Shown here piece after piece: positions 46,500 to 60,350 of a stretch of DNA of 64,000 nucleotides. The stretch is from positions 103,582 through 167,581 of the forward strand of contig CAXBYW010000002.1 in the NCBI GenBank assembly GCA_963980225.1. Reading direction: 5' to 3'. The translations under genes and the position numbers were made by a program. How positions within the stretch are numbered: position 1 is the stretch's first letter; each line of letters begins with the position of its first letter. The notes under the pieces were generated by a model. It was not told the DNA's origin, searched no databases, and worked only from the letters and a program-made list of their open reading frames with translations. The stretch comes from an uncultured bacterium (GTDB lineage: Bacteria; Patescibacteriota; Microgenomatia; UBA1400; MFAQ01).

Positions 46500-47795
46500 A
46501 TGAAGTTAGATATAAATAAACAGTTTGAAGATGTTTTGGAGGTTTTAGAAAGTACTAACCATCATGTGTTCTTAACGGGTAAAGCAGGAACGGGCAAGTC
46601 TACTCTGCTAGATTTGTTTCGTGAGAAAACCGCTAAGCAAATAGCGGTAGTTGCTCCGACAGGGGTGGCGGCGGTGAATGTAAAGGGTGAGACGATTCAT
46701 TCTTTTTTTGGTTTTAGACCGGGCACCACCTTGGTACAAGCCAAAAGACTGGCTGGTAGGACCAAAAACAAGAAGCTGTATAACTCGCTTGAGACACTGG
46801 TGATTGACGAGATCTCTATGGTCAGGGCAGATCTTTTGGACATGATAAATGTGTTTTTGCAGGCGGTGCGGGGAGATAATAGTGTGTTTGGTGGAGTACA
46901 GGTGGTGATGGTGGGAGACATGCACCAGTTGCCCCCGGTGGTTACTAGAGAGGATGCAGAGAGTTTGGACATGATGTATGACACACCCTATTTCTTCTCG
47001 TCTGAAGCAGTATCTCAGATCGGTCAGGATTTTTTCCAGCCTCTGAAATTTATGGAATTGGAGAAGATTTATAGACAGGAAGATGAGAAGTTTATCTCTC
47101 TTTTAAATGATGTTCGAGAAAACAATATAGATGAAAAAAAACTGTCTAGCTTGCAAGTCTTGGAGGATGGTTGGGAACACATAAAAGACCATGTAATCTT
47201 AACGGCGGTTAACTATGTAGCTGACAAGATTAACCAACAAAGACTAGCTCAGATAAAAAGTGAACCAAAAACATACATGGCCAGTTTATCTGGTGAGTTT
47301 GATGGTAAGAGACTGCCAACCGATGAAAAACTAATTTTAAAGGAAGGTGCGAGAATTATGATGCTTAATAATGATGACCAAGGTCGATGGATAAACGGGA
47401 CCATGGGAACAGTGAGTAAACTGAAACGGTCTGCAGTAGATGTAGATCTTGATGATGGAGAGACTTATGAAGTTACTCCTTTTACTTGGAGCATGTATAA
47501 GTCGGTTTATGATGAGAAGAAGGGGGTGATAAGAAAGGAAGAGAAAGGATCTTTAACTCAGCTACCGATTAGACTGGCTTGGGCAATTACGGTACATAAA
47601 AGCCAGGGTAAGACTTTTGACAAAGTAATTATTGATCTAAGTCGGGGAATGTTTGCTCACGGCCAGGCCTATGTGGCTTTGTCACGATGCACGACCCTAT
47701 CTGGAGTGAAACTTACTCAGCCAATGGAGAAAAGACATGTGATTATGGATGATAGAGTAGTAAAGTTTGTGGAGAGGATAAGAAAAGAGAAATAG
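46500..47795 (+). CDS. Pif1/RecD-family 5'-3' DNA helicase
   Basis: LTGKAGTGKSTLL Walker A, VIDEISMV Walker B, C-terminal SH3/2B region, 431 aa. Confidence 0.7.
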   Translation: MKLDINKQFEDVLEVLESTNHHVFLTGKAGTGKSTLLDLFREKTAKQIAVVAPTGVAAVNVKGETIHSFFGFRPGTTLVQAKRLAGRTKNKKLYNSLETLVIDEISMVRADLLDMINVFLQAVRGDNSVFGGVQVVMVGDMHQLPPVVTREDAESLDMMYDTPYFFSSEAVSQIGQDFFQPLKFMELEKIYRQEDEKFISLLNDVRENNIDEKKLSSLQVLEDGWEHIKDHVILTAVNYVADKINQQRLAQIKSEPKTYMASLSGEFDGKRLPTDEKLILKEGARIMMLNNDDQGRWINGTMGTVSKLKRSAVDVDLDDGETYEVTPFTWSMYKSVYDEKKGVIRKEEKGSLTQLPIRLAWAITVHKSQGKTFDKVIIDLSRGMFAHGQAYVALSRCTTLSGVKLTQPMEKRHVIMDDRVVKFVERIRKEK

Positions 47796-47813
47796 GATAA
47801 AATATAGGCATAA

Positions 47814-47887
47814 GCGGGTGTCGTATACCGGTATTACCTCAGCTTTCCAAGCTGATGAAGGGGGTTCGACTCCCCCCACCCGCTCCA
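47814..47887 (+). tRNA. tRNA-Gly (TCC), unusual D-arm
   Basis: acceptor gcgggtg/cacccgc, anticodon loop ttTCCaa, T-arm ggggttcgactcccc, CCA. Confidence 0.7.
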
Positions 47888-48545
47888 TATCGGACTGCAT
47901 TTCCAAAAGTGCTCTTTTAGTCCGATCTGTGGGCATATTTTTCGGTTCGAGCCGTTGTTTTTTCTCATTCATACTTTTTTCAATCTTCTTGAGATAGATG
48001 AACGCGTTTTTCGCGTCGATTCGGACAATTCTGTCTTTTAAGATAAGGTTCGAGCCAAGAATGCGTAACACCATACGTTTAGCTTCTGTATCCTCTTTAT
48101 GAAATATTTTTGTTACGTTTGAAGCAAAGGCTAAGATCTCTTCCATTGTTTTTGCCCACCCTCCTAGATTATCGGAAGCAATCTGGTTTTTTGTCTGATG
48201 TTCTTCTCGAAGAAGCCGCTCCTTCTCTTTTTGGTAGTCTTCTTCCGTAACTAAATTTTCAATTTTCATTCCGTATAATTGTTTTTTTTCAACAAGAATG
48301 GCATCTAAGCGTTTCGTAAGCTTTGCTTTCTGGTTCCTCTCAAATTCAAATTCACGCGCATTTCTGCGTTTAAGATTTTTCCTGACCCACTGAATAAAAG
48401 AAGGTTTAATTTCTAGGCTATTAATGAAGACATCTACTTGTTTCTTTAATTCAATAGCATTGAGATATTGTTGACCACAAGGTCCCTTTTTTTTGACACA
48501 GCGAGCCCTACAAAAGATGATTTTAGAAGAATTAGACCTAGATCA
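47888..48545 (-). pseudogene. 3' remnant of a large serine recombinase gene (zinc-ribbon/coiled-coil C-terminal region only) abutting tRNA-Gly
   Basis: in-frame hand translation CGQQYLNAIELKKQVDVFINSLEIKPSFIQWVRKNL...MVLRILGSNLILKDRIVRIDAKNAFIYLKKI parallels the C-terminal halves of both intact recombinases in this window; no catalytic domain and no upstream start; ORF tail is antisense of the tRNA. Confidence 0.6.
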
Positions 48546-48833
48546 ATACGTGGACATTCTTATTGGCCCCGAAATAAAGCAAAACAAAGAAGAAACCCAG
48601 GAAACGCCACCAAATGAGGAGCCGGTAGCCCCTGTAGTGCCTTCTAACGACGCTTTGCCACCTCAACCAGTGAATGCATCACCAGTAGCAAATAAGAACA
48701 AAATTCGAGAGCTAATCGGGAAAATTCCAGGTTTGGGGAAAATGCTCAATGCCTGACTTTATTGTTTGATTTATTCTTTCAAGCAAATATAATGAAGTCA
48801 TGAAAGTAGGAAATGTAAGATTTCTGGTATAGC

Positions 48834-50417
48834 ATGGATAAAATAACTCTCTCCCTACAGACAATCTCCTTACTTATCAATTCAGGAGAGTCAAAAAAAG
48901 CTCTTGAGAGATTGGCTGAATTCGAAAGGGAAAACTCTGACGACAAAAGGCTGATATTTTATAAGCCTGGTTTTTTAGTTGATATAGGGAATGATCTCAG
49001 GGACGTAAAAATCATTAGTGAAGGGATTGATATTGGTGAGCTAACGCTAACAAAAACAAAGAATAACAAGACACAGGCTTATCTCCACTACTGTTTGGCA
49101 AATGGGTACACATGTATGTATCAGCTTACGGAAAGAATGGGTGGTGCTGTAGACAGGACTATACCTCAAAGTGAGAATCTCCTCAAAGCAAAACAGCACC
49201 TATTTCAAGCTAGAGATATTAAAATTGATGACCCAAACCTAGAAGTACAATTGTTTGTTAACTTGGGTAACTGCTTAGATACATTCGGCAGAGGCATTGA
49301 AGCAATTAGTGTTTACGATAAAGCATTGCGAATAAATAAAAGCTTTTCCATGGCTATTGCCAATAAAGCCAAGGCTCTGAGAGCATTTGCAGAAATTTCC
49401 GATAAATACAGAGCATCAATATATGTTGAAGCATATCAAGATATAAAATCGGTTATTGATAAACCAGATCTTGTTGCAGTTGGTGGTTTAGGAGCGAAGC
49501 AGGATTTTGAGCGTGAACTTTCTTACATAGAATCCCGTTTCCAAGACAAAACGCTTCTACAGAAAAAGCTTAAACATCCCCCGTACAAAACCGCAAACCT
49601 CTCTGATTTTGAAAAGTTCTATTTAAAATTTTGCAATAAAGAGAAATTGTTCTTAAACTTCCACCTCCATCAGGATCATTGTGAGGCAGCAATCGAGGAT
49701 CCAGTATTTATCAGACTAATAACTAAAGTCGATGATAATGATACTTTTTACAATCTAGCCAAGCACCTCAATCAAATTAAAGAAGACTATGCCGTCGCCA
49801 GGTTGAATCTGGTCCAATCCCAATACAAGCAGAAAGCCTTCAATAACATTAGCAAGAGAACCAGTTATGTATATGCTTTGGACTACTCCCAATTTAATCT
49901 CTATGTTGGTTTATTGAAGTCAGCGTTTAGAGACGCATTCAACATATTAGATAAAATCGCCATATTTATTAATGACTACTATAAACTTGGATTCAATGAA
50001 AATGATATATATTTCGATTCATTAAGGCGAACCGGAGGAACAGCTTCAATCTGGGAAGATAAAGGAGTTATTAGAAAAGAAATTCTCAACTCAGAAAACC
50101 TAAGCCTATATGCCCTTTATGACATTTATCGTGATTTTAAGCAAAATCGATACAGAAGAATTCAGGATATTAGGAATGCTCTTACACACAGGAGGTTAAT
50201 CGTTTTTGACTCGCTAATTACGAGTGTTGCCGATAAAACCGATAAACACAACATTGACTCTGATACTATTCTTCAAGAAACAGTGGATCTGATGCGCTTA
50301 ACCAAGGCAGCAATCATTTACCTGATTAACTTTGTGAACTCTGAGGAAGAAAAGAAGCACAAGAACAGTGATAAACCAATCCTGAATATGTATGCCGATA
50401 CCTCACAGTTCTTGTAA
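48834..50417 (+). CDS. HEPN-domain protein (Abi-like candidate RNase effector)
   Basis: C-terminal R-x4-H motif in DIRNALTHRRL; helical N-terminal region; 527 aa. Confidence 0.5.
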   Translation: MDKITLSLQTISLLINSGESKKALERLAEFERENSDDKRLIFYKPGFLVDIGNDLRDVKIISEGIDIGELTLTKTKNNKTQAYLHYCLANGYTCMYQLTERMGGAVDRTIPQSENLLKAKQHLFQARDIKIDDPNLEVQLFVNLGNCLDTFGRGIEAISVYDKALRINKSFSMAIANKAKALRAFAEISDKYRASIYVEAYQDIKSVIDKPDLVAVGGLGAKQDFERELSYIESRFQDKTLLQKKLKHPPYKTANLSDFEKFYLKFCNKEKLFLNFHLHQDHCEAAIEDPVFIRLITKVDDNDTFYNLAKHLNQIKEDYAVARLNLVQSQYKQKAFNNISKRTSYVYALDYSQFNLYVGLLKSAFRDAFNILDKIAIFINDYYKLGFNENDIYFDSLRRTGGTASIWEDKGVIRKEILNSENLSLYALYDIYRDFKQNRYRRIQDIRNALTHRRLIVFDSLITSVADKTDKHNIDSDTILQETVDLMRLTKAAIIYLINFVNSEEEKKHKNSDKPILNMYADTSQFL

Positions 50418-50455
50418 GACTTTTTCACAGAATTTTTGTATAATTTAGATAACCT

Positions 50456-52549
50456 ATGGAACCAAAGGCCGATCATATGGAGAGAGAAACACCAACAACC
50501 CTACATGCATTGCGTAAAGATAATCAAACTGAAATTCTCGGTCATTTTTCTCCTGACCAACAACAAGATATCCGCCATAGACAACAAATCCTCTCTTCAC
50601 TTGCCTACTTTATCGGTAAAGATTTTCAGATACCTGTTGAATTGAATCAACCCGGTGCAGGCTGGCATTGGGATTTTGGTCAAAACAAAATTCGCATTGA
50701 CCCAAAAGACTTACTGGAGAAAGAAATGGACTATCTCCGCTTTGTTATTTCCCACGAAGGCGGTCATAGGCGAGTTTCTCGAACTGAAGATATTCCCACA
50801 GAAACATGGCGACAACCAGGATTCTCTTTCATGATGAATGCAATTGAGGATCCTAGAACTAATAACTTTGTGGCGGAAGCCTACCCTCGCTTCCGTGATC
50901 AAATGGATATTGCTTACCAAGAAGACTTGGATTTTGAAGATAAAGCTAAAGACAAAGCTCATGAACAGCTAGGCTATACTCCCAGATTTATGCAGGCCGG
51001 GTTTGAATATATTCGCCAGTGGTACGGAGAAACCCAAGGCGAAGAACTAGGTACTTTGAAAGAAGATCTTCCCGAAGAAGTAAGAATCGTGGTTGATCAA
51101 ACTTTAGAAAGTGCTAGAGACTCTTGGTTACGTTATCCCTCAAAACGGGAAGCTGATGAGAGCGAGGAGTTAATCAGAAGATATGCCAACGTCAGCTATG
51201 AAATAAACCGTGACGAAGTCTGGCCGGAATTTCAGAAACTGGTTGAGCAGGATATGCAGGATCAAGAAATGCAAGAGTTTATGAAAGATATGCAGGGTGA
51301 TGGCGATGGTGAAGGACAGCAGGGACTTCCTCAGGAACTTACCGATTCGCTTACGGAAGAAGAACAAAGAGAACTGGAGGAGGCCATAGAGAACGCTCAG
51401 CAGGGAAACCAAGCAGGTCAGGAAGGCGATGGTCAACCAAGAGCTATAGACCTCGATTCTCTTTCCGAAGGGCTGAAACAAAAAATCAAGGACTATATTG
51501 ACTCCTTACCTGAAGATGTCAAACGGGAGCTGGTAGAAAAAGCACAACAGGCTCTACAGGACTTTGAGCGAGAGATAAATGAAGAATTTGAAGGAAAATT
51601 GTCCGATAGCCCTGAGAAGCAAACCCAGCGAGGTGAGATGGAAGGAAAAAAAAGCAAAACCCAACCTGAATCTGGAGATGAAACTCAAGGAGAACAACAA
51701 CCCGAACAGACAGCAGACCAAAAAAGATTTAAAGATCTTATTGAAAAAACTTTGCTTGGTGACGAAAATATTTACGAAGAATACCGACGTGATGTCCTTC
51801 CTCAGATAGACGCTCTTGAAGCTGACTTACGAGAAATATTTGTAGCCAGACGAGCACAAAAATGGCAGACTGGTTATAAGTCAGGAAAGCGCATTGACAT
51901 TAAAAGAAGAATGCAAGAAAAAGCTTTGGGTATCTCTGCTGTAGAAAGTCGAGCTTGGCAAAAACGAGAAATACCCCAGGAGAAAGATTATGCAATCGGT
52001 CTTTTGGTTGATTTGTCAGGCTCTATGAGGGGTTCAAAAATACGAGAAACATTTAAAGCAACCATTGTATTGGCCGAAGTACTCAACAGGCTCTCAATAA
52101 ATACTGAAATTTTAGGTTTTAACGACAGGTTATATGAATATCAGCCATTTGGGTACGATATGGGTCGGGAGGTACGAGAACATATGGGTGGAATGTTACA
52201 AGAAGTAGACACAGAAGCTGCTTCTTATAACGATGATGGCTGGGCAGTTCAACAAGCCTCGAAAAGGCTTGCGCGCCAAAAAGCAGCTGAAAAATTCCTG
52301 TTTGTCCTTTCTGACGGCTTACCTGAAGAATCAAGAGCGCACTCCGGTTCTCAATATGAACTTGGCAAAATGGTTAGTCAAATAATGGAAGAGACTGATC
52401 AAAAACTAATAGGGCTAGGAATTGGTCCTGGGACAGATCACGTTGAACGCTATTATCCTAACAGCGTAGCAAACATTGGAGTGCGTGAAATGTCAGAAAA
52501 ATTAGCTGACATTATCAGGGAAGTAATCGCCAATTATGACACTTTCTAG
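50456..52549 (+). CDS. HExxH metallopeptidase-like N-terminal domain plus C-terminal von Willebrand A domain
   Basis: VISHEGGHRRV (HExxH); acidic Q/E-rich linker; MIDAS DLSGSMRG; 697 aa. Confidence 0.7.
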   Translation: MEPKADHMERETPTTLHALRKDNQTEILGHFSPDQQQDIRHRQQILSSLAYFIGKDFQIPVELNQPGAGWHWDFGQNKIRIDPKDLLEKEMDYLRFVISHEGGHRRVSRTEDIPTETWRQPGFSFMMNAIEDPRTNNFVAEAYPRFRDQMDIAYQEDLDFEDKAKDKAHEQLGYTPRFMQAGFEYIRQWYGETQGEELGTLKEDLPEEVRIVVDQTLESARDSWLRYPSKREADESEELIRRYANVSYEINRDEVWPEFQKLVEQDMQDQEMQEFMKDMQGDGDGEGQQGLPQELTDSLTEEEQRELEEAIENAQQGNQAGQEGDGQPRAIDLDSLSEGLKQKIKDYIDSLPEDVKRELVEKAQQALQDFEREINEEFEGKLSDSPEKQTQRGEMEGKKSKTQPESGDETQGEQQPEQTADQKRFKDLIEKTLLGDENIYEEYRRDVLPQIDALEADLREIFVARRAQKWQTGYKSGKRIDIKRRMQEKALGISAVESRAWQKREIPQEKDYAIGLLVDLSGSMRGSKIRETFKATIVLAEVLNRLSINTEILGFNDRLYEYQPFGYDMGREVREHMGGMLQEVDTEAASYNDDGWAVQQASKRLARQKAAEKFLFVLSDGLPEESRAHSGSQYELGKMVSQIMEETDQKLIGLGIGPGTDHVERYYPNSVANIGVREMSEKLADIIREVIANYDTF

Positions 52550-52566
52550 TATACTATGCATAACTT

Positions 52567-52977
52567 ATGAAAAATACACTTGATGATTTCTTAAAATACG
52601 TAATTTCTCAAAAAGAAGTCTCTTTAATTCTTGCGAAAGATGATGAGGAACTCAAAAAGCTAACAGAAAAACTAGAAAAAGCTGGTTTTAGACAGGCGGT
52701 CGATACGTCTGATTTGTTTAAACAAATCACTAAAGCTTCGAAAACGTTTGTTGCAGTTAAGGATAGTTTATCCAAAGACCTATACGATTTTGCCGTTCAA
52801 TACCCCACTGGCCAGGTAGAAATCTATGACAAATTCAATTTAAAATCTCAGACAGTAATACCAACCTATAAAGACGTTTCTGTTGTTTACGCATTAACTA
52901 AAGCTACCCTTAAAAAGACTCAAGAATCTGGATTTAGGATCCTTGAGTTAATGGGTATAACTTACCAAAGTAAATAA
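52567..52977 (+). CDS. hypothetical protein between the vWA and AAA+ genes
   Basis: 136-aa ORF. Confidence 0.45.
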   Translation: MKNTLDDFLKYVISQKEVSLILAKDDEELKKLTEKLEKAGFRQAVDTSDLFKQITKASKTFVAVKDSLSKDLYDFAVQYPTGQVEIYDKFNLKSQTVIPTYKDVSVVYALTKATLKKTQESGFRILELMGITYQSK

Positions 52978-52982
52978 AACAT

Positions 52983-54926
52983 ATGCCAGACGAAACCATG
53001 GAAAGACATGAATTCACACCCACACCTGAACATCCTGTTGAGGAAACACAAGACACAATTGCATATTTAGGTGTTCGTTTACCAAAAGCCCAGAATGCTG
53101 AGGGTCATTTTGTTCCTCGCCGGGAACAGTATGCCGATTATATTAACGACAGATTCTCGCTAGGTTTACAAAAAGACATAGCGGTCAGTTTTCTACAAGG
53201 AGATCCTATATTAGTTGAAGGAGGAACCAGTATTGGTAAAACCACTACAGTGAGAAAAATGGCAGCAGATCTTGGTTGGGAAGTCCATTATGCAAACTTG
53301 AATGGCGCTACTGATGTTGAAGACTTAATGGGAAGGTATATTCCCAATCCAGACAAACGAGGTTCTGATGATACTGAGTATGTTTTTGCTGACGGAAAGG
53401 TTACTTCAGGCTTAAGACAGGAAGACGGTAAAGTTAAAGTGATTATTCTGGATGAATTCAACTCAGCCGCTCCAAACATTGTTATCCGCCTTCATGAGGT
53501 TTTAGATGCAATTGACCGCGGTGAATCGGTTGTACTTTCAGAAGACGCTTCAGAATCCATCCCCGTCAGCAAAAAGACAACTAAAGTAGTGGCTCTCATG
53601 AATCCCCCAGGAAAGGGATATTTTGGTCGAGAACCACTTGATCCTGCTCAATTAAGGCGTTGGGTGTATCTTAAAGCTCCTTCAGACCTGCCTGAAGACA
53701 CATTTTCTTATTCAACAGATGCCTTGTTTGCCCTTGCTTCTCAAGATGAAGAAGTTCCTCCTGAAGCATTTTTAGTGTCACAAGACTATGCTCTCCTACC
53801 CGAACAGTTGCAAGAAATCCCAGGAATTGATTCCATCCTTGGAAAATATAAGGAATTTCATAAGGCTGCTAAAGAATTAGTTAAGGGAAGAAGAATAGCT
53901 GCCGATCAACCCCAACCTTTTACTTATGACGACAGAATGGAACCACGAAGGGTTAGAGATTTCATCCTAAGATTTTATAACGGCGATATCAATGAAACAT
54001 TCCAGGGTGCTCTGCGTTATTACTATTCAAACAAACTTGATTCCGATGTTGACAGACAAAAATTAGAAGAACTGATCCGACACGTCGAGTATATGGCGCC
54101 TCAAAATGTTTCCTCAAGGAGAGGTCTTGACCGAACTTCCACAGAGGCTCCAGAAAGACAAAGAGAAACGGTAGAGATATCTCATGAGCAAGACGCTTGG
54201 AGTGATGTGTTGGGTACGAACATAGAAGTTCCACCACTTCCTTCGGAAGTAACCCCAGAGGTACAAAGAAACCTAGAACGCCTTGGTTTTGAACTAAGAT
54301 TTATTCCCAAGCTTGACATCGGAACCTTGGATGAACTCCAGCGAAATGGCCAAGAAGAATTTTTGAACGATATACAACGTCGTTATCCCAATTGGCGAAG
54401 GTATGAAACTCTCTCCGGAGAGGAACGGGAAGATCACAGTGTGGGAAGAAACTTAGAAGAATGGTTTTGGGGATTGGCTAAAGATGGCAGAATGGAGTTT
54501 CCTCAATTGCCTGGTACTTGGGTAGCAGTGGAAACCATGCCTAAACCGTCTTACGGTGATTCCTATGAAAAAACTCTCGCAGGTGAAGCCTTGGGTTTAG
54601 AAGACCGTTTCAATGTTTCTTGGGATGATGCTCATCAAGCAATCGAAACTCATAAACGTGAGCTCTTAGATGACATGGGATTAGCCACTTCTGTGGATGT
54701 GCGGATGTTAGAAGCTGTTGAGTGGAATTTGCTGGCTAATCGTGAAGGCTGGGGTACAACTGACACTTATGAATGGACAAATACTGAAGCACGTGCTGGC
54801 GGCGATCCTCGCCGTGTCGTTGTTGGTGCCTCCGACGATGGTGGGGCCGCTAGCGCCCCTTGGGGTCACCCGACGTTCTCGGGTGGCCGCGTTGGTTTCC
54901 GTGTCGCTGTAGTTCTTGGTACTTGA
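52983..54926 (+). CDS. MoxR-like AAA+ ATPase with C-terminal C-type-lectin/FGE-sulfatase-like domain carrying the DGR variable region
   Basis: Walker A GGTSIGKTT, Walker B VIILDEFN, sensor ALMNPP, DPAQLRRW; C-terminus RRVVVGASDDGG..W.HPT.S...VGFRVAVVL resembles the FGE/CLec terminal motif. Confidence 0.8.
   Translation: MPDETMERHEFTPTPEHPVEETQDTIAYLGVRLPKAQNAEGHFVPRREQYADYINDRFSLGLQKDIAVSFLQGDPILVEGGTSIGKTTTVRKMAADLGWEVHYANLNGATDVEDLMGRYIPNPDKRGSDDTEYVFADGKVTSGLRQEDGKVKVIILDEFNSAAPNIVIRLHEVLDAIDRGESVVLSEDASESIPVSKKTTKVVALMNPPGKGYFGREPLDPAQLRRWVYLKAPSDLPEDTFSYSTDALFALASQDEEVPPEAFLVSQDYALLPEQLQEIPGIDSILGKYKEFHKAAKELVKGRRIAADQPQPFTYDDRMEPRRVRDFILRFYNGDINETFQGALRYYYSNKLDSDVDRQKLEELIRHVEYMAPQNVSSRRGLDRTSTEAPERQRETVEISHEQDAWSDVLGTNIEVPPLPSEVTPEVQRNLERLGFELRFIPKLDIGTLDELQRNGQEEFLNDIQRRYPNWRRYETLSGEEREDHSVGRNLEEWFWGLAKDGRMEFPQLPGTWVAVETMPKPSYGDSYEKTLAGEALGLEDRFNVSWDDAHQAIETHKRELLDDMGLATSVDVRMLEAVEWNLLANREGWGTTDTYEWTNTEARAGGDPRRVVVGASDDGGAASAPWGHPTFSGGRVGFRVAVVLGT
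54791..54918 (+). repeat. DGR variable repeat (VR), last ~42 codons of the AAA+ gene
   Basis: ~125 nt near-identical to 55386-55512; 22 internal mismatches, all at positions that are A in the downstream copy. Confidence 0.85.
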
Positions 54927-54972
54927 TCTCTTGAATTCTTGGTTCTTTTGGTTTCTTGTTACTTGGTCCCTT

Positions 54973-54998
54973 GACCCGCGAAGCGGGTCATTTTTTTT
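54973..54998 (+). terminator. GC-rich hairpin plus T8 just after the VR (terminator; also the usual position of a DGR VR-flanking hairpin)
   Basis: gacccgc gaa gcgggtc then tttttttt. Confidence 0.7.
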
Positions 54999-55385
54999 CA
55001 AAAAAATTTATACCCTATCTTTTGATGTTTATAAATAGCATTTACCCTTGATTTTTACTCCCCACCTTATTTATACTTCAACTTAGATTTTGTTAATGAA
55101 AATACAAGCACGCTTGCATTTCACAAAATTGCTCTTCTTTAGAGCTAGGCCGGAATTCTTGCGGTTACGGCTGCAAGGAGAGTGCTGATAAAGGAGAGAT
55201 AAAACTACTTGCTTACTTTTGAAGATCTCAGGGAAGCCTGAGTCAATTAAAATACAGGAGAGAGTTTTTAAGAAATTAAAAACAATCTTGGGTAGTATCG
55301 AAAGAGTGAAAAGAACATTAAGAATCCAGTGGTAATAATGAGTCAGAGTTATTCTCTAACTCAGGAAAGAAAGTAGGCAACGCGA

Positions 55386-55512
55386 AACGTGATGACGGCG
55401 ATCCTAACCGTGTCATTGTTGGTAACTCCGACAATGGTGGAGCCGCTAACGCCAATTGGAATCACCCGACGAACTCGAATGACAACGTTGGTTTCCGTGT
55501 CGCTGTAGTCTT
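55386..55512 (+). repeat. DGR template repeat (TR)
   Basis: Asn-codon (AAC/AAT)-rich copy of the VR; adenines correspond to all variable VR positions. Confidence 0.85.
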
Positions 55513-55555
55513 ATCTCAGAACGCTCAAAAAAATCTGCCCAGAGAGTCAGGTAAC

Positions 55556-55942
55556 TCAAGAACGATAGGTAGATGCTTTAATCCAGCCACCAAGCATCTT
55601 GCCTATCTCTTGAAGTTGAGACTCAAGAAGGAGGTATTTCTTGTTATCAAGAATCTTTAAATCTTTACAACACCTTATGAGAACTTTTAATACATCAAGC
55701 TTTATGCTCGCCCCTTGTAAAGTGGGAACTTTTTCTGATTTTGATAATTGGCTGGCAGTAATAATATCTTCAATCAATCCCAAAATACCATTTTCAATTT
55801 TTTGTCCAATGGTATATCGATCTTTTTTAGGAAAATGAGATACAAGTTGATAGAAAAACTTATAAAGCTCGTATGTTTTCTGAAAGATCGGAATGTCTAA
55901 ATTAAGCCTGCCTGATTCAAAATCAGTATGAGAATTTGCCAT
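55556..55942 (-). CDS. avd: four-helix-bundle protein (23S rRNA IVS protein family), Avd-like DGR accessory candidate
   Basis: 128 aa, FQKTYELYKFFYQLVSHFPKKDRYTIGQKI typical of this family; sits between TR and RT. Confidence 0.65.
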   Translation of the reverse strand: MANSHTDFESGRLNLDIPIFQKTYELYKFFYQLVSHFPKKDRYTIGQKIENGILGLIEDIITASQLSKSEKVPTLQGASIKLDVLKVLIRCCKDLKILDNKKYLLLESQLQEIGKMLGGWIKASTYRS

Positions 55943-56506
55943 AATAATTATAATGAAATTATAACACTTGAAAATCTATTTCTGGCATGGGAAGGGTTTG
56001 CTAAAGGCAAGAGATCGAAAGCTGATGTAATAAATTTTGAACGAAACTTAGAAGATAATATTTTCAGCCTACACAAAGAGCTTAAGGATAAAGTATATCA
56101 ACACGGAAACTATCAGGAGTTTTATGTTCGAGATCCCAAAATACGCCATATCCACAAAGCTTGCGTCAAAGATAGGGTTGTTCATCATTTAACTAGTAAA
56201 ATACTGGAACAGGTTTTTGATCCAACTTTTTATCCCCACTCCTACTCTTGTCGCAAAGGAAAAGGTACACACAAAGCTGTCCAGGCATTTACAAAGATGG
56301 CTCAGGGCGAGCTGGATGAAGCTAATAAAGCCAAGGGGCGTGCGCTTATTGAAACCCAGGAGTATAAGGGTAAATTTAAAAACTGCCAGAAAGACAAGGG
56401 TAAATTTGATCCAACACCACAGATTATTCTCTCTTTGGCTATTCAGTACATTGGAAACATTATTAGAAGAAAAGGAGGTGATCAATATGAACAACATTTA
56501 CCCTGA
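55928..56506 (+). pseudogene. reverse transcriptase, N-terminal fingers/palm region only (domains 1-2); truncated
   Basis: LENLFLAWEGFAKGKRSK..F.....L...L....Y.......YVRDPKIRHIHKACVKDRVVHHL...FDPTFYPHSYSCRKGKGTHKAV matches RT motifs 1-2; no motif 3-7 or YxDD in any downstream frame. Confidence 0.65.
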
Positions 56507-56750
56507 ATGGAAGAAGGTGTTGTGGAGATTCGGCCGCATTTTCCTGTCAGCATTTCTATTTACTGGCTCACTAGTGCTTATCAACACACAGCCAGAAGCA
56601 CTGACTAGCTGGGACAAATTTTTCAATATGCTGGTTTTACCCTTCCTCTTGTCCGGAGGAATAGCAGGTATCAATGCTGTCGGTAAGCTTTTGCGTGACA
56701 CGTTTGGATCGGAAGATAAAAATAGTCTAGTCGATAAATTACCATTCTAA
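56487..56750 (+). CDS. small two-TM membrane protein (holin-like size)
   Basis: strong RBS aaaggagg 8 nt upstream of ATG; MNNIYPEWKKVLWRFGRIFLSAFLFTGSLVL, 87 aa; within the 56217 track ORF. Confidence 0.45.
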   Translation: MNNIYPEWKKVLWRFGRIFLSAFLFTGSLVLINTQPEALTSWDKFFNMLVLPFLLSGGIAGINAVGKLLRDTFGSEDKNSLVDKLPF

Positions 56751-57007
56751 TGCCCATGAAAGATGATGAATCGGTAAACACCATAAAAATGTTTGAACGA
56801 GTAGCCAAACTTGAAGAAAGAGTTGATGGTGGCTTTGGGTTTATTGGCAAGGAACTAAAGGAGATCAAAGAAAACCACCTGCACCAATTACAAGCAGACG
56901 TGAGCGACCTGAAAATAAAAGTAAATACGATTACGGTAAAGGTTGGTGTGGTGGTTGCGGTTGCAACCATATTGATCGACTTAGCTTTTCGCTTTCTGTT
57001 TCGGTGA
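56750..57007 (+). CDS. hypothetical coiled-coil protein with C-terminal TM
   Basis: 85-aa ORF. Confidence 0.35.
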   Translation: MPMKDDESVNTIKMFERVAKLEERVDGGFGFIGKELKEIKENHLHQLQADVSDLKIKVNTITVKVGVVVAVATILIDLAFRFLFR

Positions 57008-57340
57008 AGATGTCTTTTTCTTGGCTTTTTTTTCAGTGATTTTTTTGTTGCCACTGAAAATTAGATTACTAAGGTCTTCAGTGAAGCCTTTAAAGGAATT
57101 TGCATTTAAAACATGGAAGTGACCAGCCTCGGGGCTTCCAGTAAAAATAAGAGTATCTCCAGAACTGATATTATGCGCTTTTCTCAATTTAGCTGGAATT
57201 ACTATCTGTCCTTTGGAACTTACTGGTGCGGTACCGAAAACAGTCATCTTAACTGATTGTTTCTTTTTTTTAGTCTTACTTTTCATATTCTTTTTAAAAC
57301 TATAATTTGAATTGGATCTCTTCGTGTGAGACAAAATCAT
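56981..57340 (-). CDS. AbrB/MazE/SpoVT-family DNA-binding protein with lysine-rich tail (antitoxin-like)
   Basis: GQIVIPAKLRKAHNISSGDTL swapped-hairpin motif; true start probably the internal Met (MTVFG). Confidence 0.5.
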   Translation of the reverse strand: MILSHTKRSNSNYSFKKNMKSKTKKKKQSVKMTVFGTAPVSSKGQIVIPAKLRKAHNISSGDTLIFTGSPEAGHFHVLNANSFKGFTEDLSNLIFSGNKKITEKKAKKKTSSPKQKAKS

Positions 57341-57682: not shown

Positions 57683-58165
57683 ATGTATCAACAAATCTTT
57701 GAACTCCATGCGGATTTACTTAAGGCTTTGTCCCACCCCAAACGACTGGAGGTAGTTAACCTACTTCGAGATAAAGGTTTAAATGTAGGAGAGATGCAGG
57801 AAATGTTAGGGTTACCCCAGGCAAACTTGAGTCAACACTTAATGGTTTTACGTGAAGCAGGAGTGGTAGAGACAGAAAAAAAGGGCAAGGAAGTGTTTTA
57901 TAAACTGACTAGTAAGAATTTTGTTAAGGCCAGTGATTTACTTAGAGAAGTACTGATTAAGATACACAAAGATGATGACTTGGCGGATGAGTTAACTATA
58001 AAAATGAAGGATCTGGTGCCGGTAGTGGCGGATCCGGTTTGCAAGATGCGGGTATCCCCTAAGACGGCGGCCAGAGGATTTAAGTATGAAGGACAGACCT
58101 ACTATTTCTGTGCAAGTGGATGTTTGGAGAGTTTTAAAAAGAAGCCTAAAAAATATATTAATTAA
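57683..58165 (+). CDS. ArsR/SmtB-family metalloregulator fused to C-terminal TRASH/YHS metal-binding domain
   Basis: HTH LKALSHPKRLEVVNLL...NLSQHL; C-terminal DPVCKMRV...YYFCASGC. Confidence 0.75.
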   Translation: MYQQIFELHADLLKALSHPKRLEVVNLLRDKGLNVGEMQEMLGLPQANLSQHLMVLREAGVVETEKKGKEVFYKLTSKNFVKASDLLREVLIKIHKDDDLADELTIKMKDLVPVVADPVCKMRVSPKTAARGFKYEGQTYYFCASGCLESFKKKPKKYIN

Positions 58166-58175
58166 ATAATAAAAA

Positions 58176-58661
58176 ATGGATAAAAAAATAATAGCAGGTA
58201 TCGTGTTTGGAGTTTTGGTCTTGTTGGGAGGAACTGTCTTTTTGGCTACAAAAGTAAGTTCTCCTGCACAAATAGAGATGGTTCAAGGTGCTATGGTGGA
58301 AGTTGGTGAAACCGCATGGGAGTGGGGAGATATAGGAATAAGTGATGGTAAGGTAGAAAAAGAGTTTGAGATAAGGAACACCGGTTCTGAAACATTAAAA
58401 CTTTTTAATGTTGCTACTTCTTGTATGTGTACTACTGCAATGTTTGTAGATGATGAAAGTCGTATTTTTGGAATGCACACCAAGTCTGGCTATGCAAAAG
58501 AAGTCCCGGCAGGAGAAAGTGTTAAGGTCAGAGTGGTTTTTGATCCACTGTTTCATGGCCCAGATGGAGTTGGTCCTATTAGTCGTCAGGTTACCATGAT
58601 GACTAACGATTCTGAAAATAGCCAGTTAAGTTTTATGCTTACCGCTACGGTTAGAAAATAA
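58176..58661 (+). CDS. DUF1573-like membrane-anchored beta-sandwich protein
   Basis: N-terminal TM, CMC motif, 161 aa; copper-cluster context. Confidence 0.5.
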   Translation: MDKKIIAGIVFGVLVLLGGTVFLATKVSSPAQIEMVQGAMVEVGETAWEWGDIGISDGKVEKEFEIRNTGSETLKLFNVATSCMCTTAMFVDDESRIFGMHTKSGYAKEVPAGESVKVRVVFDPLFHGPDGVGPISRQVTMMTNDSENSQLSFMLTATVRK

Positions 58662-58682
58662 TAATTATTAATATATTAAAGA

Positions 58683-59615
58683 ATGAATAAAAAAATAAAG
58701 AAAGTAATGCCAGTATTTATCATATTAATAGCTGTCTTAGGTGTGTCTATTGTCTGGGCAAGTTTGTTTGACGTTAAAATAAAAGCAAGTGACGGCTTAG
58801 TATCTTTGGTAAATCGAATTTACCCTACACCCACTCCCCTACCAGAACCAAGTATAGAAAACTTAGAAGTAGCAGTAGTACCAGAAGAAGGTTATGAAGT
58901 GAAGATCAACTGGGGTGATACGGGTAAGAAGCTGGTGAAGGCTGGTGGGATTGATATGGGTAAATTTGAGAAGAATTACTCGACTCCTAACTACGCGGAA
59001 CTTATGTCTTACTTAACTGAGAGTAAGGATAAGGGAATTAATATAAACAAAGAAAGCTCGTATTTTTGGGTAAACACTCTGTGGGCCCTGGGGTTAACGC
59101 AAAATTCCAAGGTGCTTTCTGAAGGGATTATGGGTACGGAGTATAAAGATAGACTGGCTAATTTTGCTTCTACTGGAGGCTGGACCTTGGGATCTAAGGC
59201 GGCAGTAGACCTTTATAGTTCTAGCAATATTCTTGATTTGGATGAGGCAGAGCAAGAGATGGTGAGTGAGATCACTTCTAATATATATAGACCTTGTTGT
59301 GGTAATCCCACCTCTTTCCCTGACTGTAACCACGGTATGGCTATTTTAGGATTAGTTGAGTTAATGGTAGACCAAGGTTTTAGTGAGGATGAGATTTACA
59401 AAGCCTCGCTGATGTTTAATTCGTACTGGTTCCCCCAGACATATATTGATCTGGCCTATTACTTCCAGACCGAAGAAAATACGTTGTGGGAAGAGTTAGA
59501 TGCTAAAGAGCTCTTGTCAGCTCAGTATAGTTCTGCACCCGGTTATCAGGCAATTAAAGAAAAAATAGGTGATGTTCCGGGAACGGAATCTAGAGGTGGA
59601 AGTTGTGGAGCTTAA
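58683..59615 (+). CDS. membrane-anchored Cys-rich hypothetical protein
   Basis: N-terminal TM, CCGNPTSFPDCNHG, 310 aa. Confidence 0.45.
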   Translation: MNKKIKKVMPVFIILIAVLGVSIVWASLFDVKIKASDGLVSLVNRIYPTPTPLPEPSIENLEVAVVPEEGYEVKINWGDTGKKLVKAGGIDMGKFEKNYSTPNYAELMSYLTESKDKGININKESSYFWVNTLWALGLTQNSKVLSEGIMGTEYKDRLANFASTGGWTLGSKAAVDLYSSSNILDLDEAEQEMVSEITSNIYRPCCGNPTSFPDCNHGMAILGLVELMVDQGFSEDEIYKASLMFNSYWFPQTYIDLAYYFQTEENTLWEELDAKELLSAQYSSAPGYQAIKEKIGDVPGTESRGGSCGA

Positions 59616-59630
59616 AAAATATAAAAAATT

Positions 59631-60344
59631 ATGAAAAACAAAATACTGTTGGTTTTAGGGTTAGTAGGGATACTAGGAGTTTGGTCTTTGAAAAAAACTA
59701 GTAAACTTCAAGACTCGTCTCCTAAGGTTGTTTCTTTGCAGTCACAAGACTTTGATGAATTGGTCGCTAGCAAAGATGTGTTCTTATTGGATGTTCACAC
59801 ACCAGAACAAAAACATATTGCAGGAACCGATGCTTTCATTCCCTATGATGACATAAAGGGAGGGTTGGGGCAGTTACCTGAGGATAAAAGTACCCCGATC
59901 TTGGTTTACTGTAGATCTGGTTCTATGAGCAAAAGCGCAAGTAAGGATTTGGTGGAGTTAGGTTATAGCGAGGTTTATGACTTGGTGGGTGGGATTAATG
60001 CATATAGGGAAACCCATGTTGGAGTAACTTTAATGCCAGAGACAGTTGAATTGGGAGAAGTGATTTACAAAGATGGAGCAAGTACAGAGTTTGTTTTGAC
60101 TAACAATACTCCCAATGAACTAAAAATAGAGAGAGTTACTGGGTCGTGTGCTTGCACCCAGCCAAGTATAGAAAAGGATGTCTTGGCTCCGTATGAGTCT
60201 ACTATCATTAAGGTTAAATTTGAACCTTCTGTTCATAAGGATGACTCGGATATAGGAGACTTAGTAAGACTGGTGTTTGTAGACACAGATAATGAGAATT
60301 TTGAGCACCTGGTAGGTAAGATTACGGCAAAAGTAGTAAAGTAA
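59631..60344 (+). CDS. rhodanese-domain protein with DUF1573-like C-terminal domain
   Basis: active-site loop LVYCRSGSMS, C-terminal CAC motif, N-terminal TM. Confidence 0.65.
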   Translation: MKNKILLVLGLVGILGVWSLKKTSKLQDSSPKVVSLQSQDFDELVASKDVFLLDVHTPEQKHIAGTDAFIPYDDIKGGLGQLPEDKSTPILVYCRSGSMSKSASKDLVELGYSEVYDLVGGINAYRETHVGVTLMPETVELGEVIYKDGASTEFVLTNNTPNELKIERVTGSCACTQPSIEKDVLAPYESTIIKVKFEPSVHKDDSDIGDLVRLVFVDTDNENFEHLVGKITAKVVK

Positions 60345-60350
60345 TATTAG

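What the first reader, a model, noticed from the sequence alone, without database searches (positions are those of the whole stretch)
54791..55512. Diversity-generating retroelement whose target is a MoxR-like AAA+ ATPase
The last ~125 nt of the 52983-54926 gene (VR) and a non-coding copy 460 bp downstream (TR) are near-identical, with 22 internal mismatches. Every internal mismatch falls where the TR has an adenine, and the only other difference is a c/t at the 3' edge of the match (VR tt vs TR tc). The substitutions are TR aac/aat codons replaced in VR by cgc, gcc, gat, agc, cct, ggt and ttc. The variable codons sit in a C-terminal peptide ending VGFRVAVVL, the C-type-lectin/FGE-sulfatase-like scaffold typical of DGR targets. 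A GC hairpin directly follows the VR. An Avd-like four-helix-bundle gene and a reverse-transcriptase gene follow the TR. DGR targets are usually surface or ligand-binding proteins. Here the diversified domain is fused to a MoxR-type AAA+ ATPase that is paired with a vWA protein, which suggests a hypervariable sensor in an NTPase-driven conflict system.
Basis: seen in the sequence. Interest (0 to 1): 0.92.

Follow-up and report, generated by a model that had tools for sequence, protein, structure and literature searches.

The report
Broken retroelement diversifying an ATPase sensor
This is a real diversity-generating retroelement aimed at the lectin-like tail of an AAA+ ATPase, but it is the type already known to be commonest in Patescibacteria (CPR), and this copy is a fossil: it sits in a decayed prophage, its reverse transcriptase is cut off, and its variable region no longer varies.

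Summary
VR 54791-54913 and TR 55387-55509 differ at 21 positions, and every one is a TR adenine (p about 7e-14). A confident structure model of the target's C-terminus matches DGR variable proteins and FGE-type C-type-lectin folds. The N-terminus is a midasin/CobS-like AAA_5 ATPase, and a vWA protein is its operon partner.

1. The RT gene keeps only codons 1-126, with no catalytic YxDD. avd lies on the opposite strand, which is the usual CPR "B3" layout.
2. The identical VR occurs on at least 23 contigs, and contigs from five other samples are 99.99-100% identical across the locus. Sister lineages with an intact RT differ at 11-13 VR residues and nowhere else. This copy is frozen.
3. In relatives the whole cassette lies between the portal and capsid genes of a phage. 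The window holds only a fragment of that phage, next to a tRNA.

The kind is already published: AAA-ATPase-CLec is reported as the commonest DGR target architecture in CPR bacteria, and DGR links to MoxR-vWA systems are described. This is a new, defective member of a known kind. Side findings are the phage carriage, a zincin-like domain on the vWA partner, and a strongly covarying ~300-nt RNA just upstream of the TR.

The parts
47814..47884 (+). tRNA gene at the left edge of the element; probable integration-site flank
   Evidence: Rfam tRNA, 58 bits. It aligns to a tRNA at the same position in L001.
47697..48269 (-). 190-aa ORF, probable C-terminal remnant of a large serine recombinase (integrase). 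The N-terminal catalytic part is missing. Weak assignment.
   Evidence: 48% identical over 166 aa to the C-terminal end of the 574-aa Resolvase/Zn_ribbon_recom gene of L001. It has no Pfam hit of its own.
48487..48750 (+). Remnant of a phage portal gene (residues 563-650 of 651 only)
   Evidence: tblastn with the L006 portal, 62% identity, 2.6e-27. The L006/L008 portal hits PHROG portal and head-tail adaptor families and Pfam SU10_portal.
48834..50417 (+). HEPN-domain protein, 527 aa (helical, weakly TPR-like N-terminal half plus LA2681-type HEPN with an RNALTH motif); candidate RNase effector
   Evidence: PF18733 at 3.2e-32. The Rx4H motif is seen in the translation. Full length relative to L006.
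50456..52549 (+). Partner protein, 697 aa: N-terminal zincin-like metallopeptidase domain (invariant HEGGH), acidic linker, C-terminal vWA/MIDAS domain (DLSGSM)
52567..52977 (+). Conserved 136-aa protein of unknown function, always between the vWA and AAA genes
   Evidence: No Pfam, PHROG, NCBIfam or PADLOC hit. Present in every related locus down to 34-38% identity. pN/pS 0.070/0.594 against L001.
52983..54926 (+). DGR target gene, 647 aa: AAA_5 ATPase (residues about 70-240, Walker A GGTSIGKT, Walker B ILDEF), helical middle region, C-terminal CLec/FGE-fold domain carrying the VR
54789..54913 (+). Variable region (VR). Its last ~24 nt (54890-54913) are the nearly A-free block shared with the TR, here called IMH-like.
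   Evidence: 21-23 mismatches to the TR, all at TR adenines. VR codons 603-638: pN 0.27, pS 0.10, against 0.036 and 0.52 in the scaffold.
54914..54971 (+). Almost invariant CTTG-rich tract, found only next to the VR and running past the stop codon; probable recipient-site signal
   Evidence: Almost invariant across 7 loci (a few single-base differences) whose overall DNA identity is 76-83%. Absent after the TR.
54972..54998 (+). GC hairpin (TGACCCGC-GAA-GCGGGTCA) followed by T8; DGR-type hairpin and/or intrinsic terminator of the target operon
   Evidence: Terminator scan. The stem is conserved in all 7 loci, while the T-run is present only in some.
55048..55077 (+). Conserved promoter-like site (TTGATT-18-TATACT) in front of the TR RNA
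   Evidence: Promoter scan. Both hexamers are nearly invariant in 13 loci.
55086..55380 (+). Conserved structured RNA leader (8 helices) ending 5-7 nt before the TR
   Evidence: RNAalifold gives 72 pairs, 29 with compensatory changes. 97.4% of cells are paired against 44-52% when the partner is slid; 28 pairs have double changes against 2-10; 0 of 500 shuffles reach this. Coordinates. The only Rfam hit is a weak partial match to RT-7 (23.6 bits; gathering score 116.8).
55385..55509 (+). Template region (TR), non-coding
   Evidence: 29 adenines, 9 AAY codons in the VR reading frame.
55556..55942 (-). avd accessory gene, 128 aa, intact, on the opposite strand; its start overlaps the RT start by 15 nt
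   Evidence: bAvd PF22296 at 2.6e-24. PHROG 'Avd protein of DGR' at 1e-27. 87.5% identical to L006 Avd over the full length.
55928..56305 (+). Reverse-transcriptase remnant: codons 1-126 of a 345-codon DGR RT. The ORF then runs on to 56506 in unrelated sequence.
   Evidence: tblastn with intact RTs matches residues 1-126 only. PHROG RT 8.6e-41 over residues 1-123 only. No Pfam RVT_1 hit. No YxDD in an RT context anywhere in the window. The same 192-aa ORF is present in independent assemblies.

Best explanation
The locus is the surviving fragment of a temperate phage of a WWE3-lineage Patescibacterium. It carries a CPR-type diversity-generating retroelement with the layout target-VR, TR, avd on the reverse strand, RT.

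How the intact element works (shown in relatives, inferred as the mechanism): a promoter upstream of the TR makes an RNA with a ~300-nt structured leader followed by the TR. The RT, with Avd, copies the TR into cDNA and misincorporates opposite adenines. The cDNA then replaces the VR at the 3' end of the target gene, guided by the shared A-poor block and the VR-specific tract and hairpin. This rewrites about 12-14 codons on the ligand-binding face of a C-type-lectin-fold domain.

That domain is fused to a cytoplasmic midasin/CobS-like AAA+ ATPase. The ATPase is encoded in an operon with a zincin-peptidase-vWA protein, a conserved 136-aa protein and, in this clade, a HEPN RNase.

Most likely function (inferred, not shown): the lectin domain binds a variable protein ligand and couples that binding to the ATPase/vWA pair, which controls the peptidase and/or HEPN effector. 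That would make it a phage-carried recognition or exclusion module.

In this window the machinery is dead. A deletion removed the RT beyond codon 126 together with the rest of the prophage. The VR is frozen at its last written sequence, and the four protein genes remain intact.
For: DGR signature:
- 21 of 21 VR/TR mismatches fall at TR adenines (p about 7e-14). The same pattern is seen in six relatives.
- Non-A VR positions follow this lineage's own TR, including lineage-specific TR changes (TR GGAGCC where the others have GGTGCC; VR GGGGCC). The VR was therefore written from the present TR.

Components:
- avd.
- RT remnant.
- CLec fold.
- AAA_5 with midasin and CobS as nearest solved relatives.
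- vWA with MIDAS motif and HExxH zincin-like N-terminal domain.
- HEPN.
- No transmembrane segments.

Activity in relatives: members of the P0006 cluster (its sequenced locus L005 has an intact RT) differ at 11-13 VR residues and at 0-1 residues elsewhere.

Inactivity here:
- The identical protein is on at least 23 contigs.
- Contigs from five other samples are 99.99-100% identical over 7-10 kb, including the truncated RT ORF.
- Cluster mates differ at 1-2 residues outside the VR and none inside it.

Phage origin:
- The order portal-orf83-HEPN-vWA-orf135-target-TR-avd-RT-HTH-...-major capsid protein (and in L008 an amidase/endolysin-domain protein further downstream) is conserved, in whole or in part, in L004-L010 and L014-L015.
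- Four of the carrying contigs are IMG/VR viral contigs.
- The window keeps only portal residues 563-650 through RT residue 126, next to a tRNA and a recombinase remnant.
- A distant relative, L017, is also flanked by phage tail and head genes.

Selection: scaffold pN/pS is 0.036/0.521, against 0.273/0.097 in the VR.
Against: - The biological role of the AAA-CLec/vWA/136-aa/HEPN module is inferred from domain content and published analogy only. No PADLOC defence model matches it.
- HEPN and the phage structural neighbours are found only in the nearer clade. Some distant loci (L025) show no obvious phage genes.
- An RT acting in trans from elsewhere in the genome cannot be excluded from a 64-kb window. 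The frozen VR could partly reflect a very recent clonal spread, since the compared contigs are almost identical throughout.
- The position between portal and capsid genes fits a virion-related role at least as naturally as a defence role.
Confidence: 0.8

Rival explanations
1. The element is still active. The truncated RT is irrelevant because another DGR reverse transcriptase elsewhere in the genome (CPR genomes often carry several DGRs) services this TR/VR pair in trans.
For: avd, the TR, the leader RNA, the shared A-poor block and the hairpin are all intact. Some relatives (L013, L024, L025) have the target but no avd or RT within 10 kb. Multiple DGRs per CPR genome are reported (PMC10907252).
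Against: The VR is identical on at least 23 contigs, and cluster mates show no VR change. RT-intact sister lineages show 11-13 VR differences between otherwise identical proteins. There is no other RT in the 64-kb window. The related L001 lineage, whose RT is also broken, likewise shows one VR on 11 contigs.
Confidence: 0.1
2. The module is a virion-morphogenesis or host-attachment function of the phage, not a conflict system. The AAA+/vWA pair would act as an assembly chaperone, as described for the MoxR/vWA pair of Acidianus two-tailed virus. The DGR would diversify a receptor-binding lectin domain to switch tropism, as in Bordetella phage BPP-1.
For: The cassette lies between the portal and major capsid genes in the nearer relatives, and next to minor-tail and head genes in L017. 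Tropism switching is the classic role of phage DGRs, and a viral MoxR-vWA tail-assembly system is cited in PMC7159879.
Against: The four genes stay intact and under purifying selection in two lineages that have lost the virion genes (window and L001). A HEPN RNase and a zincin peptidase are odd partners for a structural role. No PHROG structural family matches the target: its hits are 'porphyrin biosynthesis' (CobS-like), an unknown-function family and an ATPase. The same core module occurs without detectable phage genes in L025.
Confidence: 0.25
3. It is a chromosomal NTPase-driven conflict system of the host with a hypervariable sensor. This would be a member of the MoxR-vWA ternary systems in which the DGR is an integral, working part.
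For: MoxR-clade ATPase, vWA protein, HEPN, peptidase domain and DGR are all present, and the proteins are cytoplasmic. The conceptual framework is in PMC7159879 and PMC10907252.
Against: No VMAP component was detected, and the lectin domain is fused to the ATPase rather than to the vWA protein. The cassette is phage-borne in relatives, and here it is a prophage fragment. The DGR is not working. There are no PADLOC hits apart from a marginal local match of the target to mad8 and generic RT models on the RT remnant.
Confidence: 0.3

Closest known systems
CPR-type DGRs with AAA-ATPase-CLec targets (Paul et al. 2017, as summarised in PMC10907252; 'UVR4'/Midasin-domain targets and architecture B3 in Wu et al. 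2018, PMC5758913)
   Same: Host group (Patescibacteria). TR-(avd)-RT layout with avd on the reverse strand. Target with a midasin-like AAA domain and a C-terminal VR. A-to-N pattern concentrated in AAY codons.
   Different: This copy has lost the RT catalytic domain and is frozen. The CLec fold of this VR class, left undecided in Wu 2018, is confirmed here by structure prediction. The phage carriage shown here was described as unknown for CPR DGRs in Wu 2018.
DGR-linked MoxR-vWA (VMAP) ternary conflict systems of cyanobacteria and gammaproteobacteria (Kaur et al. 2020, PMC7159879; Doré et al. 2024, PMC10907252)
   Same: A MoxR-clade AAA+ ATPase operonic with a vWA protein. A DGR-diversified FGE/CLec domain as the variable recognition element. 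Peptidase and nuclease-type effector domains nearby. Cytoplasmic location.
   Different: The lectin domain is fused to the ATPase itself, not to the vWA component. No VMAP protein is present; a 136-aa protein occupies the third position. The host is a unicellular, reduced-genome CPR bacterium or its phage, not a multicellular bacterium. The RTs of most CPR DGRs are reported to form a separate clade (not tested here).
Bordetella phage BPP-1 DGR (Mtd/Avd/TR/Brt) and Treponema TvpA
   Different: The target is an intracellular AAA+ ATPase fusion rather than a tail-fibre or surface lipoprotein. avd is inverted. The conserved RNA structure lies 5' of the TR, whereas in BPP-1 the RT-10 motif region lies between TR and RT. 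The hairpin is 58 nt from the VR.
CobS/CobT and midasin/MIDAS AAA+-vWA pairs, including phage-encoded CobS/CobT-like genes (PHROG 249, 17276)
   Same: Best sequence matches for both partners.
   Different: Scores are far below the equivalog cut-offs (22 against 558 bits; 21 against 759 bits), so these are not cobaltochelatase subunits. Extra zincin and CLec domains are present.

Membership tests
Diversity-generating retroelement (functional cassette) | TR/VR repeat pair whose differences are confined to TR adenines | tested here: met
   21 of 21 (23 of 23 when extended) mismatches at TR adenines, p about 7e-14.
Diversity-generating retroelement (functional cassette) | Adjacent DGR-clade reverse transcriptase with catalytic motifs (motif 4 and YxDD) | tested here: not met
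   Only RT residues 1-126 of 345 remain. No RVT_1 hit. No YxDD in an RT context in the window. Relatives L004-L006 and L014 have the full RT, with YADD.
Diversity-generating retroelement (functional cassette) | Accessory variability determinant (Avd) | tested here: met
   PF22296 at 2.6e-24; PHROG 3206 at 1e-27; full length.
Diversity-generating retroelement (functional cassette) | VR located in a C-type-lectin (or Ig) fold at the C-terminus of the target | tested here: met
   [not shown]
Diversity-generating retroelement (functional cassette) | IMH-type shared 3' block and a GC inverted repeat downstream of the VR only | tested here: inconclusive
   The shared 24-nt A-poor block, the almost invariant VR-only tract and the conserved hairpin are all present. 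Their role in homing cannot be tested in silico. The hairpin is also terminator-like.
Diversity-generating retroelement (functional cassette) | Ongoing VR diversification in populations | tested here: not met
   The VR is identical on at least 23 contigs and in 5 cluster members. Sister cluster P0006 does show it. Read-level data were not available.
CPR DGR architecture B3 (Wu et al. 2018) | Order TR - avd (reverse strand) - RT | tested here: met
   TR 55385-55509 (+), avd 55942-55556 (-), RT from 55928 (+). Definition from PMC5758913.
MoxR-clade (helix-2-insert) AAA+ ATPases | AAA_5-type domain with Walker A/B; nearest relatives are midasin, chelatase and NorQ; vWA partner | tested here: met
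   PF07728 at 2.7e-13. Midasin 1e-35, CobS 7e-6, NorQ 3e-4. GGTSIGKT and ILDEF are in the sequence. vWA gene is in the operon. The helix-2 insert itself was not examined.
VMAP-ternary MoxR-vWA conflict system (Kaur et al. 2020) | Third component carrying the VMAP-C domain | tested here: not met
   No VMAP-type Pfam hit in any operon protein. The third gene is an unassigned 136-aa protein. That Pfam holds VMAP models is from my own knowledge.
VMAP-ternary MoxR-vWA conflict system (Kaur et al. 2020) | FGS/CLec effector fused to the vWA component | tested here: not met
   The CLec domain is fused to the AAA+ ATPase. The vWA protein carries a zincin-like N-terminal domain instead.
FGE-sulfatase family (Pfam PF03781) by sequence | Significant profile match | tested here: not met
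   No match even at E<=10 with the C-terminal 247 or 127 aa. No PDB sequence match either. The similarity is at fold level only.
HEPN RNases (LA2681 family) | HEPN domain with Rx4-6H motif | tested here: met
   PF18733 at 3.2e-32. RNALTH in the translation.
Catalogued anti-phage defence systems (PADLOC 2.0) | Match of the operon proteins to a system model | tested here: not met
   Only a marginal local hit of the target (mad8, 2e-4, residues 62-106) and generic RT models on the RT remnant.
Cobaltochelatase CobS/CobT | Score above the NCBIfam equivalog cut-off | tested here: not met
   22.2 against 558.6 bits and 21.1 against 759.1 bits.

The most novel reading that the evidence does not exclude
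The zincin-vWA / 136-aa / AAA+-CLec cassette (with HEPN in this clade) is a phage-carried, DGR-programmed intracellular recognition system of CPR phages. Its hypervariable lectin domain would gate an AAA+ motor that releases a peptidase or RNase response, for example in superinfection exclusion. It is kept by the host after the prophage decays. Its retrohoming would depend on a previously undescribed ~300-nt structured RNA placed 5' of the TR, specific to this DGR lineage.
Probability: 0.25. Interest if true: 0.65.

Novelty: new member of a known kind. Interest (0 to 1): 0.33.

Why it matters
As a DGR it adds little. The target class, the cassette layout and the conceptual link to MoxR-vWA systems are all published. 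Three things give it modest value.

1. It offers a clean natural comparison. Lineages with an intact RT show VR-only variation, while two lineages with a broken RT (the window and L001) each show a single VR. This supports cis-dependence on the RT in uncultivated CPR bacteria.
2. This widespread CPR target class is carried inside phage genomes in the close relatives and in at least one distant one. That bears on the open question of what CPR DGRs are for.
3. The strongly covarying RNA upstream of the TR could be a handle on how the inverted-avd (B3) DGRs prime cDNA synthesis.

Tried and rejected
- Pfam and PDB sequence searches with the C-terminal 247 and 127 aa at E<=10 found no FGE-sulfatase or lectin match. 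Only structure comparison settled the fold.
- Pfam at E<=10 on the vWA N-terminus, the 136-aa protein, the HEPN N-terminus and the target's middle region gave nothing significant, only marginal TPR hits on the HEPN N-terminus.
- PADLOC matched no defence system.
- Rfam at gathering threshold found only tRNAs. At E<=1 there was only a weak partial RT-7 match, so the leader RNA is not filed under RT-7.
- A degenerate 14-base motif from the leader RNA was scanned against IMG/VR. The pattern is too unspecific.
- A covariance model of the leader was not built, because the alignment exceeds the 400-column limit and calibration would exceed the time limit.
- Paul et al. 2017 (PMC5436926) is not held. 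Its content is cited only through PMC10907252.
- The right-flank genes (coiled-coil fragment, two small membrane proteins, AbrB/MazE-like) were searched against all phage-like loci. They were found only in L001, so their origin (host or distal phage) is unresolved.
- The idea that the VR/TR pair is an ordinary diverged duplication is rejected by the adenine restriction. The idea that the RT truncation is an assembly artefact is rejected by identical independent assemblies.
Full report
**Observation.** The direct repeat is real. The repeat finder reports 54791-54913 and 55387-55509 as a 123-nt pair at 83% identity. Base-by-base comparison gives 21 mismatches, every one at a position where the downstream copy has adenine. 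That is 21 of its 29 adenines. Two more A-to-N sites sit just upstream at 54789-54790. The chance of 21 of 21 mismatches falling on A is about 6.6e-14.

The upstream copy is the last 45 codons of the 647-codon ORF 52983-54926, and the downstream copy is non-coding. Nine AAY codons of the template are all recoded in the gene, to R, A, D, S, P, G, F, G and R. Identity ends at 54913/54914.

**Components.** Pfam assigns:
- the target's residues 76-226 to AAA_5;
- the gene at 50456-52549 to CobT_C/VWA;
- the gene at 48834-50417 to LA2681-type HEPN;
- the minus-strand ORF 55556-55942 to bAvd.

The plus-strand ORF 55928-56506 has no Pfam RT hit. PHROGs and PADLOC recognise an RT only in its first ~123-127 residues. 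tblastn with full-length RTs from related loci (345 aa, RVT_1, YADD motif) matches codons 1-126 only. After '...THKAVQAFTKMAQ' the frame continues in unrelated sequence. No YxDD motif in an RT context exists anywhere in the window. The cassette therefore has VR, TR and avd but no functional RT. The order TR-(avd)-RT with avd inverted is architecture B3, reported for 90% of CPR DGRs (PMC5758913).

The N-terminal 400 aa are closest to midasin AAA domains (1e-35), CobS and NorQ. This places them in the MoxR clade in the broad sense. They are not cobaltochelatase subunits by NCBIfam cut-offs.

**Family and taxonomy.** The target has more than 420 homologs. Most are unnamed, and the named ones are almost all Patescibacteria. 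A 1-aa variant is NCBI MBT6401285.1 from a 'candidate division WWE3 bacterium'. A genome-collection scan found the vWA-orf135-AAA-VR core in Gottesmanbacteria, Levyibacteriota, Shapirobacteria, Dojkabacteria and Magasanikbacteria. The C-terminal module has 265 cluster representatives at E<=1e-3. Many are stand-alone ~270-300-aa proteins.

**Activity.** In six related loci the VR/TR differences are again confined to TR adenines. Within the 90%-identity cluster of P0006 (its sequenced locus L005 has an intact RT), several members have 0-1 differences outside the VR and 11-13 inside it. That is direct evidence of ongoing diversification.

The window's own cluster is different. Members differ at 1-2 residues outside the VR and none inside. 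The identical 647-aa protein is on at least 23 contigs. Contigs from five other samples are 99.99-100% identical over 7-10 kb, including the truncated RT ORF. The truncation is therefore not an assembly error, and the VR is frozen.

The VR does follow lineage-specific changes of its own TR at non-A positions, and it shows A-to-G at a TR adenine unique to this lineage. Homing therefore operated in this lineage before the RT was lost. The scaffold is under strong purifying selection (pN/pS 0.036/0.521 against L001), while the VR shows the inverse pattern (0.273/0.097).

**Genomic context.** In relatives carrying 72-91% identical targets the cassette lies inside a phage genome. The order is: portal, orf83, HEPN, vWA, orf135, target, TR, avd(-), RT, HTH(-), five small ORFs, major capsid protein (95% conserved). 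In L008 an amidase/endolysin-domain protein follows further downstream. Four of the carrying contigs are IMG/VR viral contigs. A distant relative in Levyibacteriota is flanked by phage minor-tail and head genes.

The window is homologous to this phage only from 48502 to 56299. That span runs from the last 88 codons of the portal gene to RT codon 126. To the left are a tRNA and a probable serine-recombinase remnant. To the right are sequences shared only with L001, a 91%-identical lineage whose RT is also broken but at a different codon. The locus is a decayed prophage fragment in which the four protein genes of the module, avd and the TR survive.

**Cis elements.** The 58 nt following the VR (54914-54971, a CTTG-rich tract running past the stop codon) and the hairpin 54972-54990 are almost invariant in seven loci whose overall identity is 76-83%. 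The T-run after the hairpin is not conserved. The hairpin is therefore more than a terminator, consistent with a DGR recipient signal, although it is not 'directly' after the VR.

Upstream of the TR there is a conserved promoter-like site. It is followed by a ~295-nt region (55086-55380) that folds into eight helices with strong covariation. 28-29 pairs carry compensatory changes. 97.4% of cells are paired, against 44-52% when the partners are slid. 0 of 500 shuffles reach the observed values. Many conserved G-U pairs make the structure specific to the plus strand. Rfam has no family for it at gathering threshold, only a weak partial RT-7 hit.

**Comparison with the literature.**
- Doré et al. 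[quoted passage not shown] 2017.
- Wu et al. 2018 list Midasin-AAA targets ('UVR4') and the B3 layout for CPR DGRs. They left the VR fold undecided and noted that phage association of CPR DGRs was unknown.
- Kaur et al. 2020 describe DGR-diversified FGS domains in MoxR-vWA ternary systems. There the FGS domain is fused to the vWA protein and there is a VMAP third component.

The present locus meets neither of those last two features, so it works like those systems but is not a member of them.

**Verdict.** This is a genuine DGR signature on a known target class, in a defective, frozen, prophage-derived copy. The proposed sensor role is plausible but unproven. A virion-related role is a serious rival, given the phage structural context.

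Noticed in passing
window 55086-55380 (+), with promoter-like site 55048-55077: A ~295-nt conserved structured RNA immediately 5' of the TR. It has eight helices, 28-29 pairs with compensatory changes across 13 loci, and 97% pairing against about 48% in slid controls. It is not in Rfam at gathering threshold (only a weak partial RT-7 hit). It may be part of the DGR RNA of inverted-avd (B3) cassettes.
   Followed up: partly
window 54914-54971: CTTG-rich, roughly 8-10-nt periodic tract between the VR and the hairpin. It is almost invariant in seven loci, extends past the stop codon, and is absent next to the TR. Probable recipient-site signal; no known counterpart was checked.
   Followed up: partly
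window 48487-48750, 47697-48269, 47814-47884: A portal-gene remnant, a probable serine-recombinase remnant and a tRNA mark the left edge of a decayed prophage. In relatives (L006, L008, L014) the same cassette lies between intact portal and major capsid genes.
   Followed up: yes
window 56306 compared with L001 10237-10665: The window and L001 have different RT breakpoints (codon 126 and codon 98) but share the same right-hand flank. L001 also keeps about 430 bp of a coiled-coil ORF that the window lacks. Neither can derive from the other, so the RT region was deleted at least twice within 84 bp. The reason is unexplained.
   Followed up: partly
[not shown]
   Followed up: yes
window 56487-57340: Two small predicted membrane proteins (87 and 85 aa) and a minus-strand AbrB/MazE-like gene follow the RT remnant. 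They are shared only with L001; whether they come from the host or the phage is unknown.
   Followed up: partly
window 57683-62531: A cluster that looks metal-related: an ArsR-type HTH fused to a YHS domain, two DUF1573 proteins (one with a rhodanese domain), and a P-type ATPase with an HMA domain.
   Followed up: no
L013, L024, L025: Relatives that keep the vWA-orf135-AAA-CLec genes but have no TR, avd or RT within 10 kb downstream. The DGR has either been lost independently or is supplied in trans.
   Followed up: no
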